From Thermodesulfobacteriota bacterium (GTDB lineage Bacteria > Desulfobacterota > Binatia > Bin18), in NCBI GenBank assembly GCA_964291405.2, contig OZ219926.1, positions 2,912,001 through 2,976,000 on the forward strand: a stretch of DNA of 64,000 bases, in the 5' to 3' direction. Below are positions 7,748 to 25,883 of this stretch, one piece after another. Every line of letters starts with the position of its first letter. Position 1 is the first letter of the stretch. The notes beneath the pieces were generated by a model, which was not told the DNA's origin, did not search any database, and saw only the letters and a program-made list of their open reading frames with translations. The position numbers and the translations under genes were made by a program.

Positions 7748-8031
<284 letters not shown>

Positions 8032-21398: not shown

Positions 21399-21424
21399 GA
21401 GAGCCGCCTGTGGATGGAGTGCGT

Positions 21425-22107
21425 ATGAACACGGTGACGTCTCGTTCGGAGTTGGTTGACTCTTTTCTGCCGTGGCTGACGTGCGTGGCGATGTTGGCCG
21501 CTCTGGCCATGGTTTTTCTGTACGTCCCCAACGAACGGGTGCAGGGCGAGGTGCAGCGTATTTTTTATTTCCATCTGCCGTCAGCCTGGATGGCGTTTCT
21601 CGGCTTCTTTATTGTGGCCGGGGCGAGTGCGGCCTTCTTATGGCAAGGCAAGCGCTCGGCTGACCTGCTGGCCCGGGCCGCCGCCGAACTCGGCATGGTG
21701 TTCTGTTCGCTCGTCCTGCTGACCGGCCCCCTCTGGGCGCGTCCGATCTGGGGCGTGTGGTGGACCTGGGACCCCCGCCTCACCATGACGCTGGTGTTAT
21801 GGTTGATTTATGCCGCCTATGTTCTGCTGCGTGTTTTTGCCGGGGATAACGAGACGGTCGCGCGATATGCCGCCGTCCTGGGCATCGTTGGCGTGATCGA
21901 TATCCCGCTGCTCTATATTTCCATTCGTCTCTGGCGCGGCATTCATCCCAAGGTCGAACAGATGGCGCCGGAAATGGCCTGGACGCTGCTGGTGTGTACC
22001 GGGGCGTTTGTGTGTGTGTTTACCTGGTTGCTACGGCTCAGGTTACGCAGCTGCACTTGCGCGACGAAATCAGAGCCCTGCGCCAGTACGTGGTGGCGGC
22101 CTCATAG
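21425..22107 (+). CDS. ccmC: Heme exporter CcmC; apparent 1-nt frameshift near 22045
   Basis: RIFYFHLP and WARPIWGVWWTWDPRLT; a natural-looking C-terminus QLHLRDEIRALRQYVVAAS* lies in another frame ending at 22107. Confidence 0.88.
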
Positions 22108-22144
22108 TCCCGTCCTGAGCCGAGTCGAAGGGAAAGGAAAAAAT

Positions 22145-22294
22145 ATGCCGTATTTGTTTGCCGCGTTCAGCGTTGTGTGGCTTGTGATTTTTCTGTATGC
22201 GCTGTCGATCTCCCGCCAGCAGCGGGAGCTGTCCCGGGAGGTTGAAACGCTCCGGCGGATGACGGAAGAGAAGACGAATACGGAATCGTCGTGA
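22145..22294 (+). CDS. ccmD: CcmD family small membrane protein
   Basis: MPYLFAAFSVVWLVIFLY...RQQRELSREVETL; purine-rich RBS upstream. Confidence 0.82.
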   Translation: MPYLFAAFSVVWLVIFLYALSISRQQRELSREVETLRRMTEEKTNTESS

Positions 22295-22324
22295 GTGTGA
22301 GTCTACTATGAGCCGGAGGAGCCC

Positions 22325-22444
22325 TTGAACAAGATTCAGGCTACGGTGATCGACGCATTCCATACGATCTTAGGCGCAAAAAAAGCTCAGGCGCTCCTGC
22401 TAGAGTTTGACCTGTCACGGTTGAGAAATTCGATGAAGAAGTAG
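22325..22444 (+). CDS. Possible 39-aa small ORF
   Basis: GGAGGA at 22315-22320, TTG start, MNKIQATVIDAFHTILGAKKAQALLLEFDLSRLRNSMKK. Confidence 0.3.
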   Translation: MNKIQATVIDAFHTILGAKKAQALLLEFDLSRLRNSMKK

Positions 22445-22644
22445 ACGCCTGCCATGCAAGTCGGTGTGCCTCGCCGCCTTTGACTGCCGGCTCTGAACTT
22501 TGTAGGGTTTACCAGGGTCGCGGCTATGACAGCGGCGTTGATACGCCGGAGGGGACCGTGAAGTCTTGCTCCCGCCTGGCGCACCTCGGCCCAGGGCTGC
22601 GCTACGTTGCGCCCGCCGCCCTTGACTGTGGAGCCTCTTTTTTT
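22441..22644. ncRNA. Candidate structured non-coding RNA or leader
   Basis: Nested complementary segments (GGTGTGCC 22463/GGCGCACC 22578; CGCCGC 22472/GCGGCG 22532) followed by a T-tract; family not recognised. Confidence 0.3.
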
Positions 22645-22684
22645 GCTTTCCGGGTGAGCATATTGTGTCCGGAAGGAAGACGGT

Positions 22685-22894
22685 ATGGAACACGAAATCA
22701 TCACCGCGTGGGCGGGGGTCGGGATTGGGGTCGGGCAGTTGTTGCTGATCGCCTGGGGCTTGCGGCAGATAGGCAAAGCCTCCCAGGAGCGGAACCGACA
22801 ACTAGACATCATGGAGGCCGCCCAGCGCCGCCAGGGTGACGCGCTTGAGCGGCAAGGCGAAGTCTTAGCCGAGCTGTTACGGCGCACCGCCTAG
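22685..22894 (+). CDS. Small single-TM protein with coiled-coil tail
   Basis: 69 aa, hydrophobic N-terminus, GGAAGG RBS. Confidence 0.65.
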   Translation: MEHEIITAWAGVGIGVGQLLLIAWGLRQIGKASQERNRQLDIMEAAQRRQGDALERQGEVLAELLRRTA

Positions 22895-23023
22895 CCCCTC
22901 CCCACACCCCTGAACATTACCGGGGTTTCTGGCGGGGTATCAATCATGTTGCTGGGGTGTTCCCACGAGCCCAAAAGAGCCTTCTTTCGGGTATGATAGT
23001 CCTCTGCTTACAGGATTCGAGAT

Positions 23024-23051
23024 TTTCCTAGCTGCCTGTACGGCAGTGAAC
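23024..23051 (-). CRISPR. Solitary type I-F-like CRISPR repeat (28 bp)
   Basis: Minus strand GTTCACTGCCGTACAGGCAGCTAGGAAA versus canonical I-F GTTCACTGCCGTACAGGCAGCTTAGAAA; CTGCC/GGCAG hairpin intact. Confidence 0.85.
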
Positions 23052-23077
23052 ACGTAGATTGTATCGGCATTCAACTT

Positions 23078-23114
23078 GTTTCAATCCTCACTGGCCCGTT
23101 AGGGTCGGTGCTTC
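23078..23114 (-). CRISPR. Solitary 37-bp Class 1-like CRISPR repeat ending ATTGAAAC
   Basis: Minus strand GAAGCACCGACCCTAACGGGCCAGTGAGGATTGAAAC; imperfect internal hairpin and 3' ATTGAAAC handle. Confidence 0.7.
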
Positions 23115-23167
23115 CCTGTACGGAGTGAGAACGACCCTTTTCCCCCAGGAAAAGGGAGGATACGGGA

Positions 23168-23463
23168 GTGCTCAACGCCTTACGGCATCTGATAGGTCGT
23201 TACGAATATCAAGGCCAACCAAGACGGCGCGGAGCTATTAGTGCTCAACGCCTTACGGCATCTGATAGGTCGTTACAACTCCTCAAGAACGAAATCAAAG
23301 CCCTCGAAATAGTGTGCTCAACGCCTTACGGCATCTGATAGGTCGTTACTTCGGCCATTTTCCGTGCCTGAATTGTCGCTTCCGGTGCTCAACGCCTTAC
23401 GGCATCTGATAGGTCGTTACGCGAGAGTTTTTGTCGGACGGAACGCGAGCAATGTGTGCTCAA
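23168..23463 (-). CRISPR. CRISPR mini-array with type I-B (Myxan/Leptospira-like) repeat; 4 full repeats, 1 truncated repeat, 4 spacers
   Basis: Identical 36-bp GTGCTCAACGCCTTACGGCATCTGATAGGTCGTTAC at 23168, 23241, 23314 and 23385; spacers 37, 37, 35 and 35 bp; GTGCTCAA remnant at 23456. Strand inferred from known ...GTTGAGCAC repeats. Confidence 0.96.
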
Positions 23464-23508
23464 GAAAATCGAGCATCAGGGAGACACCCTCGAATATCCC
23501 CTTGAAAG

Positions 23509-23590
23509 TTACAATTGGCCGACCCCCAGCCTTACAATTGGCCGACCCCCAACCTTGCAATTGGCCGCCTATCACGCTTACAATTGGCCG
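23509..23590 (+). promoter_or_regulatory. Four 23-bp-periodic TT(A/G)CAATTGGCCG repeats overlapping a probable leaderless sigma70 promoter
   Basis: Cores at 23509, 23532, 23555 and 23578; TTGCAA(23555)-N18-TACAAT(23579); ATG at 23591. Confidence 0.7.
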
Positions 23591-24839
23591 ATGGCCACGA
23601 CTCCCCTCTACCCACGCTACGCCGAACGCCCTCTCACCGAGGCGCTGGCGGACTCGCCGGCGGTGCTTATCCACGGGCCACGCCAGTGCGGGAAGACCAC
23701 CCTGGCCCGCATGGTGGGCGAACCCCGGGGATACGCCTATATCAGCTTCGACGACAACGTGGCCCACGAGGCCGCCAAAGCCGACCCCGCGGGTTTTGTT
23801 GGCCGGCTGCCGGAGAGGGTCATCCTGGACGAAGTGCAGCGTGTGCCCGCCCTCTTCACCGTCTTGAAAACAGCAATCGATCGACGGCGCGTGCCGGGCC
23901 GATTCCTGCTGACCGGCTCTGCTCAGGTGCTGCTGTTGCCCCGTCTGTCCGAATCGCTGGCCGGCCGGATGGAAATACTGCGGCTGCATCCGCTGGCCCA
24001 GTGCGAGTTGGAACGGCAACCCCCAACCTTTCTTGACGCGCTGTTCTCAGGTGGATTCAGGACCATACACAGCGACCGGCTGGCAGACACGCTGGCCGAG
24101 CGGGTCGCGGCCGGAGGCTACCCCGCGGCCCTCGCCAGAAAAACCGGACGGCGACGAGCCAACTGGTACCGTGACTACGTTGACGCCCAGCTACAGCGGG
24201 ACGTGCGGGATATGGCCCGCATCACGGCCCTGGACGTTCTGCCGCGTCTCCTCAGCGCGGCGGCCTCACAGACGGCGAGACTGTACAACCTGTCCACCCT
24301 CGCTGCGCCCTTCCAACTGAGCCGCCCGACCATTGGCGATTACGTTGGACTCCTGGAGAAGGCCTTTCTCATCGACCGGCTCCCCCCGTGGCATAGCAAC
24401 CGACTCAGCCGCTTGGTCAAAACGCCCAAGCTGCACCTCGGAGACTCCGGCCTGGGCTGCGCTCTGATTGGGGCCGATACCGCGACCCTGACAAAGCACC
24501 GCTCCCTGTTGGGGCAGTTTCTGGAGACCTTTGTGTTGCAAGAGTTGAAGCGGCAGGCCAGTTGGCACGACGCGGCCCTGGCGTTCTATCACTTCCGGGA
24601 CAAGGACCGGGCCGAGGTGGATATCGTCATCGAACGCGGCGCGCTGGCGGTAGCCGGTGTTATCACGCTTACAAGTGAAAGCCGCGGCGACCGTAACGCC
24701 CTCCGACTTCGGCGGTCTGCGCAAGCTGCGAAAAGCTGCCGCCGAACGCTTCAGCAGCGGCGTGGTGCTCTACGACGGCGAGATTGGAGCCAGCTTCGGC
24801 GACGGCCTGTACGCTGTGCCGTTCGGAATGTTGTGGTAA
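23591..24839 (+). pseudogene. AAA+ ATPase (AAA_14) with DUF4143 and C-terminal PD-(D/E)xK domain, frameshifted near 24662
   Basis: GPRQCGKTT, LDEVQR, LTGS, ESLAGR, KTPKLHLGDSGL and EVDIVIE; C-terminus VKAAATV...YAVPFGMLW is in the +1 frame. Confidence 0.85.
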
Positions 24840-24935
24840 AAGTAACCCGGCCCAACAGGTCGGCACACCACAAACGACAATTGAAAATCTCTATATCGAA
24901 GGAGTAACCACTCAGCCTACGCCAAACCGCCAAGC

Positions 24936-25883
24936 TCAACTCCCGCTGGAAAGGGAGGCCAGGTGAGGCTCAAGAAACTCGAGCATCAGGGAGACGCACG
25001 CCTCCGGCTGCTCAAGTTGGAGAAAATGGGTCGTGTCGGGGATGAAGTCGTAGTCGAGAATGATGAGGTCGCTCAGGTCCACACTTGGTAAAAACGAGAA
25101 CGGCTGGGTGGGGTCGGCTCCGATGGCCTTGGTGGGACAGGAGAGACGGTCAAGGTTTACGGCGCACGCCCATTGATACCCCTCCTCGGATACCTGGGCT
25201 TCGTATTCGCGCGGGCAACGTAATGCGTACCCCGTTCCGTCGGCGTCCCGACGGAGCGTCGTCTGCGCGATCAGGTCCGCCACGCCGGGCCGCAAGAGCT
25301 TGAAGGTGGGCGTGCCACGGATACGCTCGGCGAATTCCTCCTGCGTCTCGAATCGTTCCTGACGCCTCCGGGCCGCCTTGCCCAGCCGGAGCATCGTCGC
25401 CTCCAGCTTCTTCAGGTCTTGTGGAGGCCGACCGGGCGGGCAGAGGACCGGATCGAACAACACCAGAACCGAGAACACCGCTCGCTCCGCTGCTTGCAGG
25501 ACTGCCGTCTGTGCCGACACCGAGTGAAAAATACCAATTTTTGATTTTGCACCGAAGTGCTGATCGATGCCCTGCGCGATGTGCTCGGTGTCCTGTACGA
25601 AGGTGGGAATGGTATGCGCTTTTTGCTCGCCGGTCGGGTTCCAACCGTGGTTACGAAGATCGTACAGGACCACGTCGAACCGGTCGATGAGCAGCGACCA
25701 GAACGGAAAGTAGGCGTCCGCAGAAAATCCGTTCGCGTGGCTGAGGACGAGCCGCGGCCCCTCCGGGTTGCCGTGCCGTCTGAGGATGATAGGAGTTCCG
25801 TCGGCCATGCGGACCTCGGCCACGGCCAGCGGCTCGGGGACCTCCCAGCGCCCGGAGTCGGTGGGGGAGGGGGATTGATTCAC
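24936..25883 (-). CDS. Alpha/beta fold hydrolase
   Basis: SHANGF, YDLRNHG, FHSVSA nucleophile elbow and THFLQLEQP. Confidence 0.85.
   Translation of the reverse strand: MNQSPSPTDSGRWEVPEPLAVAEVRMADGTPIILRRHGNPEGPRLVLSHANGFSADAYFPFWSLLIDRFDVVLYDLRNHGWNPTGEQKAHTIPTFVQDTEHIAQGIDQHFGAKSKIGIFHSVSAQTAVLQAAERAVFSVLVLFDPVLCPPGRPPQDLKKLEATMLRLGKAARRRQERFETQEEFAERIRGTPTFKLLRPGVADLIAQTTLRRDADGTGYALRCPREYEAQVSEEGYQWACAVNLDRLSCPTKAIGADPTQPFSFLPSVDLSDLIILDYDFIPDTTHFLQLEQPEACVSLMLEFLEPHLASLSSGS

What the first reader, a model, noticed from the sequence alone, without database searches (positions are those of the whole stretch)
23024..23051. Solitary type I-F repeat unit (Racr or regulatory crRNA-like candidate)
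Seen: 26/28 match to the canonical I-F repeat, with the CTGCC-GTACA-GGCAG hairpin intact and no second full copy; a degenerate echo GCTTCCCTGTACGGAGTGA occurs at 23110-23128. Known: solitary repeat units can act as RNA anti-CRISPRs (Racrs), and degenerate mini-repeats act in CreTA/CreR autoregulation. Inference: it may sequester or redirect a Csy complex encoded elsewhere.
Basis: partly seen in the sequence, partly recalled or inferred. Interest (0 to 1): 0.7.

Follow-up and report, generated by a model that had tools for sequence, protein, structure and literature searches.

The report
Orphan I-F repeat in mixed-repeat relic
A genuine type I-F CRISPR repeat sits here, but it is one piece of a small patchwork of leftover repeats from three different CRISPR systems inside an inserted, variable DNA island, and is most likely a relic rather than a dedicated regulator.

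Summary
The 28-nt type I-F repeat at 23024-23051 (minus strand) is real. It passes Rfam's CRISPR-DR4 threshold and is 27/28 identical to the genome's own 26-repeat I-F array. That array lies 161 kb away beside a complete cas1-cas2/3-csy1-4 operon.

It is not solitary. On the same strand a degenerate type I-C repeat lies 26 nt away, and four type I-MYXAN repeats lie 116 nt away. The genome lacks the effector genes tested for both of those subtypes.

The cluster lies in a 2.6-kb island (22299-24907) that is missing from five congeners. One congener has a related mosaic of orphan repeats at the same site, and none of 17 has an I-F array there. Co-oriented clusters of mixed repeat types recur in this genus (apparently Candidatus Binatia). 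They often lie next to a small membrane-protein gene that elsewhere travels with a tyrosine integrase.

Orphan I-F repeats also occur in four congeners in which no Cas6f gene was found. I found no promoter by the scan, no RNA data and no promoter target.

Best reading (about 0.6): a relic of CRISPR turnover and mobile-element traffic, which Cas6f would cut only incidentally. Racr-like or crRNA-like roles are not excluded.

The parts
23024..23051 (-). Single type I-F CRISPR repeat with an intact 5-bp stem. Its 8-nt handle differs by one base (A to G) from the genome's own I-F array repeat.
   Evidence: Rfam RF01317, 40.2 bits, above the gathering score of 35; 27/28 identical to the 26 array repeats
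23052..23077 (-). 26-nt stretch between the I-C-type and I-F repeats, conserved in both G004 copies. With the end of the I-C-type repeat it forms a weak promoter-like TTGAAA(23084-23079)-15 nt-TACAAT(23063-23058), which would start RNA near the first base of the I-F repeat.
   Evidence: The hexamers were read by eye. The scan (16-18 nt spacing) did not list this site. The G004 copies have a 1-nt deletion in the second hexamer.
23078..23114 (-). Single degenerate type I-C-type repeat (Rfam CRISPR-DR9-like, ends in ATTGAAAC). Two of the 8 stem pairs of the genus consensus are broken.
   Evidence: Typed as I-C because the same repeat forms an array of about 150 repeats beside cas3-cas5c-cas8c-cas7c-cas4-cas1c in G006.
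23110..23132 (-). It may be a chimeric junction, but it is not above chance by score.
   Evidence: score 23, against 24 at two unrelated places; absent from the G004 copies
23168..23421 (-). Orphan mini-array of four 37-nt type I-MYXAN-type repeats (Rfam CRISPR-DR33-like) with three spacers of 34-36 nt.
   Evidence: Typed as I-MYXAN because the same repeat forms a large array beside cmx6-cas3-cmx1-devR-devS-cas4/cas1-cas2 in G018. The spacers found no match in viral contigs.
23456..23492 (-). Degenerate fifth repeat position, 71 nt after the last full repeat. It contains a 30-nt copy (23458-23487) of the hydrolase gene's 3' part (24968-24997).
22956..23023 (-). 68-nt flank downstream of the I-F repeat, conserved with G004 (two copies) and partly with G010. 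The first 32 nt (23023-22992) occupy the place of a spacer. A 9-bp hairpin follows (22991-22970) and is specific to this genome.
   Evidence: In run X2 a contig matches up to 22955 and then diverges, which marks 22955/22956 as a junction.
22685..22894 (+). 69-aa small membrane-protein gene, convergent with the repeats. It belongs to an unnamed family that elsewhere sits just downstream of a tyrosine integrase.
   Evidence: (200 relatives, no Pfam family, no name)
23509..23600 (.). Four tandem 23-nt units overlapping the only sigma-70-like promoter found (23555-23584, plus strand), in front of the ATPase gene.
   Evidence: also present in G004
23591..24907 (+). AAA_14/DUF4143 ATPase that matches the PADLOC candidate defence family PDC-S01.
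   Evidence: E 5e-138
22299..24907 (.). 2.6-kb variable island between ccmC(+ccmD) (21410-22294, plus strand) and an alpha/beta hydrolase gene (24936-25883, minus strand). It is absent from five congeners.

Best explanation
The I-F repeat is an orphan. It is one element of a co-oriented patchwork of leftover repeats from three CRISPR subtypes: I-MYXAN x4, I-C x1 and I-F x1. The patchwork lies in a 2.6-kb inserted island next to a small membrane-protein gene that belongs to an integrase-borne mobile element.

The patchwork most likely arose in a lineage where CRISPR-Cas modules often replace one another at the same sites, and where mobile elements insert into or next to arrays. Repeated replacement, deletion and recombination then reduce old arrays to one or a few repeats (inferred).

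The repeat has no dedicated function. Because this genome encodes Cas6f and a full Csy complex, any minus-strand transcript crossing it would be bound and cut by Cas6f. That would give a Cas6f-bound 5' fragment without an I-F handle, and a 3' fragment with the handle CUAGGAAA but no downstream repeat (inferred from established I-F crRNA processing). Any effect on immunity would be incidental and would depend on dose.
For: (1) Not solitary. Three repeat kinds lie on one strand within 400 nt.

(2) Two of the three kinds are orphans.
- The genome has only I-F and I-E Cas1 genes.
- It gave no RAMP or Cas6_C match.
- It gave no Cas8c match, with G006 as positive control.
- Of Cmx6 it has only a 31-aa fragment, with G018 as positive control.

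(3) The island is an insertion.
- ccmC and the hydrolase gene are 28-31 bp apart in 5 congeners (G001, G010, G011, G015, G018).
- They are 0.96 kb apart in G023 and 5.3 kb apart in G004.
- Ten further congeners have no CRISPR repeat of the five kinds within 10.8 kb of ccmC.

(4) G004's island at the same site holds two copies of a module that is 83-85% identical to window 22956-23115. The flanking genes are 92.6-92.8% identical. Its I-F repeats are decayed (5 mismatches, or indels), and it also holds I-E-type, I-C-type and I-MYXAN-type single repeats.

(5) Mixed clusters recur. In 8 loci of 7 genomes, all 15 of 15 neighbouring pairs of unlike repeats are co-oriented, and they often sit at the trailer end of a real array.

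(6) Orphan I-F repeats occur in G004, G005, G010 and G015, none of which gave a Cas6f match. Cas6f was found in 5 of 28 genomes. An intact repeat therefore does not need a resident I-F system.

(7) There are traces of module turnover.
- A Cmx6 fragment lies upstream of I-F cas1, and an I-C-type repeat lies after the I-F array, in this genome.
- The site next to modC holds a full I-MYXAN locus in G018. In G015 it holds I-E/I-F mini-clusters beside tRNA-Arg.

(8) In G017 the integrase/small-ORF element lies between the last repeat of a 16-repeat I-E array and a lone I-E repeat.
Against: - The repeat is 27/28 identical to the resident array, while its flanks differ by about 15% from G004. This fits selection or gene conversion as well as chance, since about 2 changes would be expected.
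- The stem is unchanged in all three full copies.
- A weak promoter-like pair ends just upstream of the repeat, and a hairpin specific to this genome begins exactly 32 nt after it. That is the layout of a single-repeat crRNA-like gene.
- The 32 nt have one PAM-flanked genomic match that is better than 100 of 100 shuffles.
- Co-orientation of 15 of 15 pairs suggests co-transcription or a directional process. The pairs are not independent, and simple decay does not by itself explain it.
- Expression was not measured.
Confidence: 0.6

Rival explanations
1. Racr-like decoy. The repeat is transcribed without an upstream I-F repeat, so Cas6f holds an RNA that lacks the I-F 5' handle. Csy3 (Cas7f) then polymerises on it without Csy1/Csy2. 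This titrates Csy subunits and dampens I-F immunity, to the benefit of the inserted element.
For: - The subtype matches the host's, and the hairpin is intact.
- The island is an insertion at a site whose ccmC 3' end is duplicated beside other insertions and on a second contig of G004.
- The neighbouring small ORF belongs to an integrase-borne element.
- In RacrIF1 the active RNA is the part upstream of the Cas6f cut, which lacks a handle (passages of PMC10651486). Any read-through from the I-MYXAN-type repeats would produce the same kind of RNA here.
Against: - Another CRISPR repeat lies 26 nt away. By the SRUFinder rules read, full matches within 100 bp are clustered into arrays and discarded. 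Whether that applies across subtypes was not in the passages.
- There are no phage or plasmid genes in the island (PHROGs scan of the 2 island proteins submitted), and this genome has no integrase homologue at E 1e-30.
- No strong promoter was found.
- The host keeps a 26-spacer I-F array and intact cas genes.
- Similar orphan repeats lie in genomes in which no Cas6f gene was found.
Confidence: 0.12
2. Single-repeat crRNA-like regulator (crlRNA/CreA-like). The repeat supplies the 8-nt handle. The next 32 nt guide Csy, by partial pairing, to repress a target such as the small membrane-protein gene or the PDC-S01 ATPase. The 9-bp hairpin ends the RNA.
For: - The layout is repeat, then 32 nt, then hairpin. 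It resembles the type I-C single-repeat units that give 49-50-nt crlRNAs with a 3' hairpin (section 5 of bioRxiv 10.1101/2024.12.27.630466).
- A possible toxin-like small ORF and a candidate defence ATPase are adjacent.
- One CC-flanked match pairs at 18 of 20 positions, which 0 of 100 shuffles reach.
Against: - That match lies about 470 nt inside an ORF of unknown function at contig C3:2069241, not in a promoter.
- There is no match of 70% or better anywhere else in the genome, and none within 3 mismatches in 28 genus genomes.
- In G004 the stretch is 4 nt longer, so the 32-nt spacing is not conserved.
- The locus is 161 kb from the cas genes.
- The hairpin is not conserved.
Confidence: 0.06
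3. Recombination handle. Single repeats of several subtypes carried by the integrase/small-ORF element act as homology or attachment sites. They let the element enter, or be captured from, CRISPR arrays of whatever subtype a host has. The window's cluster would be the scar of such traffic.
For: - In G017 the element (BrnT, integrase, small ORF) lies between direct I-E repeats at an array end.
- In G015 and G004 small ORFs lie between I-E repeats.
- 5 of 23 small-ORF places in the genus have CRISPR repeats within about 1.5 kb.
- Integration of elements into arrays is known for other element types (abstract of PMC11837452).
Against: - The intact integrase/small-ORF copies in G015:C2 and G006 have no repeat of the five kinds nearby.
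- The window's island is at ccmC, not in an array.
- No att site was defined.
- The enrichment could simply reflect a shared preference for variable islands.
Confidence: 0.12
4. Live composite array. The whole cluster is transcribed from beyond 23421, and the I-F repeat yields one working I-F guide.
For: All repeats are co-oriented. The I-F repeat is nearly perfect.
Against: - There is only one I-F repeat, so no guide can have both the handle and the 3' hairpin.
- The matching Cas proteins for the other two repeat kinds were not found.
- A terminator-like site lies just upstream of the cluster on that strand.
- The sequences in spacer position are conserved between species, unlike acquired spacers.
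Confidence: 0.05

Closest known systems
Orphan and degenerate CRISPR arrays (array remnants without adjacent cas genes)
   Same: There are no cas genes within the window's neighbourhood. Spacing is irregular and there are decayed copies. The cluster is absent from the orthologous site of most relatives.
   Different: Repeats of three subtypes (five in G004) are concatenated head to tail within a few hundred bases. Parts of the mosaic, including the sequences in spacer position, are conserved between species. Three full-text searches did not turn up a description of such mixed-subtype clusters. That is not proof that none exists.
Solitary repeat units / RNA anti-CRISPRs (RacrIF1; Camara-Wilpert et al. 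2023, PMC10651486; passages read)
   Same: A single I-F repeat with an intact hairpin that matches the host's subtype, is not next to cas genes, and lies on inserted DNA.
   Different: It is not solitary, because another repeat lies 26 nt away. It is not on a recognisable virus or plasmid. No strong promoter was found, and expression and inhibition are untested.
CreA / crlRNA mini-arrays and single-repeat units that make Cascade repress toxins, cas genes or defence genes. Sources: bioRxiv 10.1101/2024.01.05.574328 (passages) and 10.1101/2024.12.27.630466 (abstract and sections 5 and 23).
   Same: A repeat-derived handle, a guide-length stretch and a 3' hairpin. A small, possibly toxic protein gene and a candidate defence gene are next door.
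   Different: No PAM-flanked partial match in any nearby promoter. The locus is far from the cas operon. The spacing is not conserved in relatives. A better candidate of this kind in the same genome is the degenerate repeat in the cas2/3-csy1 spacer (see Noticed in passing).
Mobile elements that insert into CRISPR arrays (Tn7-like array-targeting transposons, PMC11837452; abstract read)
   Same: A mobile element (tyrosine integrase plus small ORF) is found inside or at the end of an array in G017. Repeats flank small-ORF cassettes in G004 and G015.
   Different: The recombinase class is different. Most intact copies are not in arrays. The window's copy has no integrase and lies at the 3' end of ccmC.

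Membership tests
Type I-F CRISPR repeat (Rfam RF01317, CRISPR-DR4) | Score at or above the family's gathering score, with the stem-loop | tested here: met
   40.2 bits against a gathering score of 35; all 5 stem pairs standard
Type I-F CRISPR repeat (Rfam RF01317, CRISPR-DR4) | Cognate I-F cas genes in the same genome | tested here: met
   Cas1f, Cas3f, Csy1, Csy2, Csy3 and Csy4 are all above curated cut-offs at contig C3:2763900-2772200
Functional CRISPR array | At least two repeats of the same kind separated by a spacer of regular length | tested here: not met
   For I-F there is 1 copy in the window at up to 3 mismatches, and no second copy within 161 kb at up to 6 mismatches. The four I-MYXAN-type repeats do meet this feature, but no full cmx6 was found.
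Racr / solitary repeat unit (PMC10651486) | Truly solitary: no other full or partial repeat match within 100 bp (SRUFinder rule, as read) | tested here: not met
   An I-C-type repeat lies 26 nt away and I-MYXAN-type repeats lie 116 nt away. Whether the rule applies across subtypes was not stated in the passages read.
Racr / solitary repeat unit (PMC10651486) | Encoded on a virus, prophage or plasmid | tested here: inconclusive
   The island is an insertion, and its small ORF travels with an integrase elsewhere. However, neither of the 2 island proteins scanned matched a viral family beyond a clamp-loader-like hit at E 0.009, and this genome has no integrase homologue.
Racr / solitary repeat unit (PMC10651486) | Own promoter within 250 bp upstream; expressed as a small RNA | tested here: inconclusive
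   The scan found no sigma-70-like site on the minus strand. By eye there is only TTGAAA-15-TACAAT. No RNA holder is listed.
Racr / solitary repeat unit (PMC10651486) | Inhibits interference or adaptation of the matching system | not testable with these tools
   Needs an interference assay
CreA / crlRNA | Guide part partly complementary to a PAM-flanked site in a promoter | tested here: not met
   The best CC-flanked match (18 of 20 pairing positions) is inside an ORF. There is none in the island or the cas locus.
CreA / crlRNA | Lies within or beside the cas operon (the cas3-csy1 spacer for I-F CreA) | tested here: not met
   161 kb from the operon

The most novel reading that the evidence does not exclude
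In this Binatia genus, co-oriented single repeats of up to five CRISPR subtypes (I-F, I-C, I-MYXAN and two I-E variants) may form a portable 'multi-subtype repeat cassette'. It would travel with an integrase/small-membrane-protein element. Once transcribed, it would offer a decoy hairpin to whichever Cas6/Cas5 nuclease the current host has, acting as a broad-spectrum RNA anti-CRISPR. Alternatively or in addition, it would give the element a homology handle for entering arrays of any subtype. The window's I-F unit would then be the member of the cassette that is active in this I-F host.
Probability: 0.12. Interest if true: 0.8.

Novelty: new variant of a known kind. Interest (0 to 1): 0.42.

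Why it matters
For the finding as given: a single near-perfect repeat in a genome that holds the matching Cas proteins is a tempting Racr or crRNA-like candidate. This case shows that such units can arise as by-products of array turnover. Context therefore has to be checked before a function is assigned: neighbouring repeats of other subtypes, the state of the site in relatives, and orphan copies in genomes without the matching cas genes.

More broadly, the genus offers an unusually dense record of CRISPR-Cas module replacement and of mobile elements lodged in arrays. There are 15 of 15 co-oriented mixed-type junctions, a Cmx6 stub in front of an I-F operon, and an integrase element between I-E repeats. 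This record could be used to study how arrays die, how solitary repeat units are born, and whether mobile elements exploit them.

Tried and rejected
- Spacer origin. 26-nt cores of the three I-MYXAN-type spacers gave 0 exact matches in viral contigs.
- The 32 nt after the I-F repeat and the 26 nt before it gave no match within 3 mismatches in 28 genus genomes, other than themselves.
- No match of 70% or better was found for any of the six sequences in spacer position elsewhere in the genome, except one 27/36 chance-level hit for one spacer.
- A degenerate 18-nt core of the conserved flank gave 4 viral hits that do not extend. Of the 80 loci held, only the two Binatia records were related, and 0 of 80 carried an I-F repeat at up to 7 substitutions. 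The pattern was too short to be specific.
- RNA evidence: no RNA holder listed.
- Laying contigs of 4 runs gave no contig that bridges 22883-23387. The depth peaks at the repeat come from I-F array contigs.
- Small ORF: no Pfam, NCBIfam, PADLOC or PHROGs family.
- The degenerate repeat in the cas2/3-csy1 spacer has no PAM-flanked target above shuffles.
- Earlier findings of this scan: nothing returned.
- Rejected idea: that the two small-ORF loci of this genome are a segmental duplication. The order and orientation of the parts differ, and the two hydrolases are not close paralogues.
- Rejected idea: that the island is the target-site duplication of a cassette flanked by the 30-nt hydrolase-like repeat. 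The copies are not at the island's borders.

Full report
**What is at the coordinates**

Window 23024-23051 holds, on the minus strand, a 28-nt sequence that is the only match in the window to itself at up to 3 mismatches. None of 100 shuffles gave any match. Rfam's CRISPR-DR4 model (type I-F repeats) scores it at 40.2 bits, above the gathering score of 35, with all five stem pairs standard.

The window is contig C3:2912001-2976000 of a 4.95-Mb genome. Titles of two relatives' records call them uncultured Candidatus Binatia bacteria.

**It is not solitary**

The same Rfam search shows further CRISPR repeats on the same strand:
- a 37-nt CRISPR-DR9-like repeat at 23078-23114, 26 nt upstream of the I-F repeat;
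- four 37-nt CRISPR-DR33-like repeats at 23168-23421, with a period of 71-73 nt. A degenerate fifth position lies near 23456.

Both kinds score below their gathering scores. Both are nevertheless true CRISPR repeats in this genus:
- The DR9-like repeat forms an array of about 150 repeats in G006, next to cas3-cas5c-cas8c-cas7c-cas4-cas1c. It is therefore type I-C.
- The DR33-like repeat forms large arrays in G018 and G019. In G018 the array lies next to cmx6-cas3-cmx1-devR-devS-cas4/cas1-cas2, which is type I-MYXAN.
- In both genomes the cas operon runs in the direction that corresponds to the window's minus strand. All three repeat kinds in the window are therefore co-oriented.

It aligns to the I-F repeat with a score of 23, while two unrelated places in the window score 24. 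It is also missing from the homologous copies in G004. I cannot call it more than chance, although a chimeric I-F/I-C junction remains possible.

**The rest of the genome**

- A 26-repeat I-F array lies at C3:2772333-2773861. Its repeat differs from the window copy by one base in the 8-nt handle.
- Directly upstream of that array are Cas1f, Cas2/3f, Csy1, Csy2, Csy3 and Csy4, all above NCBIfam cut-offs.
- A 16-repeat I-E array with its own cas1 is the only other system.
- No RAMP or Cas6_C match was found.
- No Cas8c or Cas5c match was found (positive control in G006).
- Of Cmx6 there is only a 31-aa N-terminal stub, just upstream of I-F cas1 (positive control in G018).

The I-C-type and I-MYXAN-type repeats in the window are therefore orphans. 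The I-F repeat is the only one whose processing enzyme is encoded in the genome.

**The cluster lies in an inserted, variable island**

Upstream is a ccm operon that ends with ccmC(+ccmD) at 22294. Downstream is an alpha/beta hydrolase gene (24936-25883, minus strand).

The state of this site in relatives:
- In five congeners (G001, G010, G011, G015, G018) these two genes are 28-31 bp apart.
- In G023 a 0.96-kb insertion is bordered by a 77-nt copy of the ccmC 3' end.
- In G004 there is a 5.3-kb island.
- In ten further congeners the 10.8 kb beside ccmC holds none of the five repeat kinds.

The window's island (22299-24907) carries:
- a 69-aa small membrane-protein gene (22685-22894);
- the repeat cluster;
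- four 23-nt tandem units that overlap the only sigma-70-like promoter found;
- a DUF4143 ATPase that matches the PADLOC candidate defence family PDC-S01 at E 5e-138.

A contig of run X2 matches 22762-22955 and then diverges. This marks 22955/22956 as a junction.

**Relatives show the same kind of mosaic**

G004's island at the same site contains two copies of a module of about 160 bp that is 83-85% identical to window 22956-23115. The module consists of the 68-nt flank, the I-F repeat, the 26-nt stretch and the I-C-type repeat. The flanking genes are 92.6-92.8% identical.
- In those copies the I-F repeat is decayed (5 mismatches in one, indels in the other), although the stem is kept.
- The same island has single I-MYXAN-type repeats, repeats of two I-E variants, a small ORF lying between I-E repeats, a PIN gene, a DUF433 gene and a truncated HTH gene.
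- G010 has a truncated piece of the module next to an I-E repeat.

Other loci:

| Genome | Order of elements (x = number of repeats) |
|---|---|
| G005 | I-F, spacer, I-F, I-MYXAN, I-C, small ORF |
| This genome, main array | I-F x26, I-C, small ORF |
| G015 | I-F, spacer, I-F, I-E, small ORF (antisense), I-E, spacer, I-E, tRNA-Arg |
| G002 | I-C x11, I-MYXAN |
| G041 | I-E x22, I-C x2 |
| G042 | I-E x24, I-C x2 |

Over these 8 loci in 7 genomes, all 15 of 15 neighbouring pairs of unlike repeats are co-oriented. The pairs are not independent, because G004's two modules are duplicates and are homologous to the window's.

**Orphan I-F repeats do not need an I-F system**

Cas6f was found in 5 of 28 genus genomes: G000, G006, G017, G021 and G022. 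G004, G005, G010 and G015 carry I-F repeats but gave no Cas6f match. This includes two perfect repeats in G015. G004, G005 and G015 also gave no Cas8c or Cmx6 match. The good state of the window's repeat is therefore not evidence of selection by the resident system.

**Mobile-element link**

The small ORF is a real but unnamed family, with 200 relatives at E 1e-3 or better and no Pfam family.
- In the genus it lies 110-130 nt downstream of a tyrosine integrase at 5 of the integrase places found: G017, G015:C2, G006 (twice) and G007.
- In G017 a segment with BrnT, the integrase and the small ORF lies between the last repeat of a 16-repeat I-E array (beside I-E cas genes) and a lone I-E repeat.
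- Of 23 distinct small-ORF places in the genus, 5 have CRISPR repeats within about 1.5 kb.
- This genome has no integrase homologue at E 1e-30, so its copies are remnants.

**Signs of module turnover**

- A Cmx6 stub lies in front of the I-F operon, and an I-C-type repeat lies behind the I-F array, in this genome.
- In G018 a full I-MYXAN locus lies next to modC. The modC-side site of G015, beside tRNA-Arg, holds only I-E/I-F mini-clusters.

**Tests of a dedicated function**

(a) Promoter. The scan found none on the minus strand, and it found a terminator-like site just upstream of the cluster. By eye, the end of the I-C-type repeat and the 26-nt stretch give TTGAAA-15 nt-TACAAT, ending 6 nt before the I-F repeat. 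The spacing is short, and the second hexamer is broken in G004.

(b) Guide. The 32 nt after the repeat are followed by a 9-bp hairpin.
- In G004 the stretch is 4 nt longer and the hairpin is not formed.
- The best CC-flanked genomic match pairs at 18 of 20 positions in the first 24, which 0 of 100 shuffles reach.
- That match lies about 470 nt inside an ORF of unknown function. It could equally be a trace of the spacer's origin.

(c) Expression. No RNA holder is listed.

(d) Literature.
- By the SRUFinder rules (passages of PMC10651486), repeats with other matches within 100 bp are not counted as solitary.
- In RacrIF1 the active RNA is the 70-76 nt upstream of the Cas6f cut.
- I-F CreA genes lie in the cas3-csy1 spacer (passages of bioRxiv 10.1101/2024.01.05.574328).
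- Type I-C single-repeat units give crlRNAs that target promoters beside the genes they control (bioRxiv 10.1101/2024.12.27.630466, sections 5 and 23).
- Supplements of these papers were not seen.

**Conclusion**

The most economical reading is that the I-F repeat is a relic in a patchwork of array remnants on inserted DNA. This lineage swaps CRISPR-Cas modules and lodges mobile elements in arrays (confidence about 0.6).

What is shown:
- the anatomy of the cluster;
- the orphan status of two of the three repeat kinds;
- the insertion;
- the recurrence of mixed clusters in relatives;
- the independence of orphan I-F repeats from Cas6f.

What is inferred:
- the history of replacement, deletion and recombination;
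- that Cas6f would cut any transcript that crosses the repeat.

A transcript carrying this repeat without an upstream I-F repeat would have the form of a Racr. A weak decoy effect therefore cannot be excluded (about 0.12). The same holds for a crRNA-like role (about 0.06), a role as a recombination handle for the integrase element (about 0.12), and a live composite array (about 0.05).

Three full-text searches found no description of co-oriented mixed-subtype repeat clusters.

Noticed in passing
L001 12260-12287 (= G000 contig C3:2768259-2768286), between cas2/3 and csy1: A degenerate I-F repeat whose stem is changed on both sides (CTACC/GGTAG), so the hairpin is kept. It lies 35 nt before the csy1 start codon. 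This is the known position of I-F CreA/crlRNA genes. No CC-flanked target above shuffles was found (best 15 of 20; the shuffles reach 15-16).
   Followed up: partly
G000 contig C3:2763765-2763857 (L001 about 7766-7858): A 31-aa N-terminal stub of Cmx6 (type I-MYXAN Cas6) directly upstream of the I-F cas1 gene. This suggests that the I-F module replaced an I-MYXAN module there.
   Followed up: partly
G000 contig C3:4214353-4214389; L021, L025 and L032 at about 1501-1540; also L020, L023, L027: Single type I-C-type repeats with intact hairpins lie at many non-orthologous places in the genus. Several lie 0-12 nt upstream of a ribosome-binding site or start codon. They occur in genomes with no I-C array found in the genus repeat search (G005 and G015 also gave no Cas8c match). 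Why single repeats are dispersed in this way is unexplained.
   Followed up: partly
L078 9825-12198 (G017): A segment with BrnT, a tyrosine integrase and the small membrane-protein gene sits between the last repeat of a 16-repeat I-E array and a lone I-E repeat. A PIN gene lies just beyond. It looks like a mobile element inserted at an array end.
   Followed up: partly
window 22118-22298; L015 1782-1858; G007:C92:10056-10233; G004:C2:109529-109640: The 3' end of ccmC is duplicated beside insertions in two relatives and is present on a second contig of G004. This fits an attachment site for integrating elements.
   Followed up: no
window 23509-23600: Four 23-nt tandem units, each holding CAATTG, overlap the promoter-like site in front of the PDC-S01 ATPase gene. 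G004 has the same units without the ATPase. They may be operator sites.
   Followed up: no
window 23458-23487 and 24968-24997: A 30-nt direct repeat. One copy lies inside the 3' part of the hydrolase gene and the other at the degenerate fifth repeat position of the I-MYXAN-type mini-array. The hydrolase copy is also present in empty sites. Its origin is unexplained.
   Followed up: partly
window 22613-22699 and 22852-22899: The small-ORF cassettes of the genus have strongly conserved ends (88-96% identity). One end is the promoter and 5' leader, which has an 8-bp stem covering the ribosome-binding site. The other is the last codons plus the 3' flank. The middle is variable and internally repetitive. 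This resembles the layout of type I toxin genes, but that is speculation.
   Followed up: no
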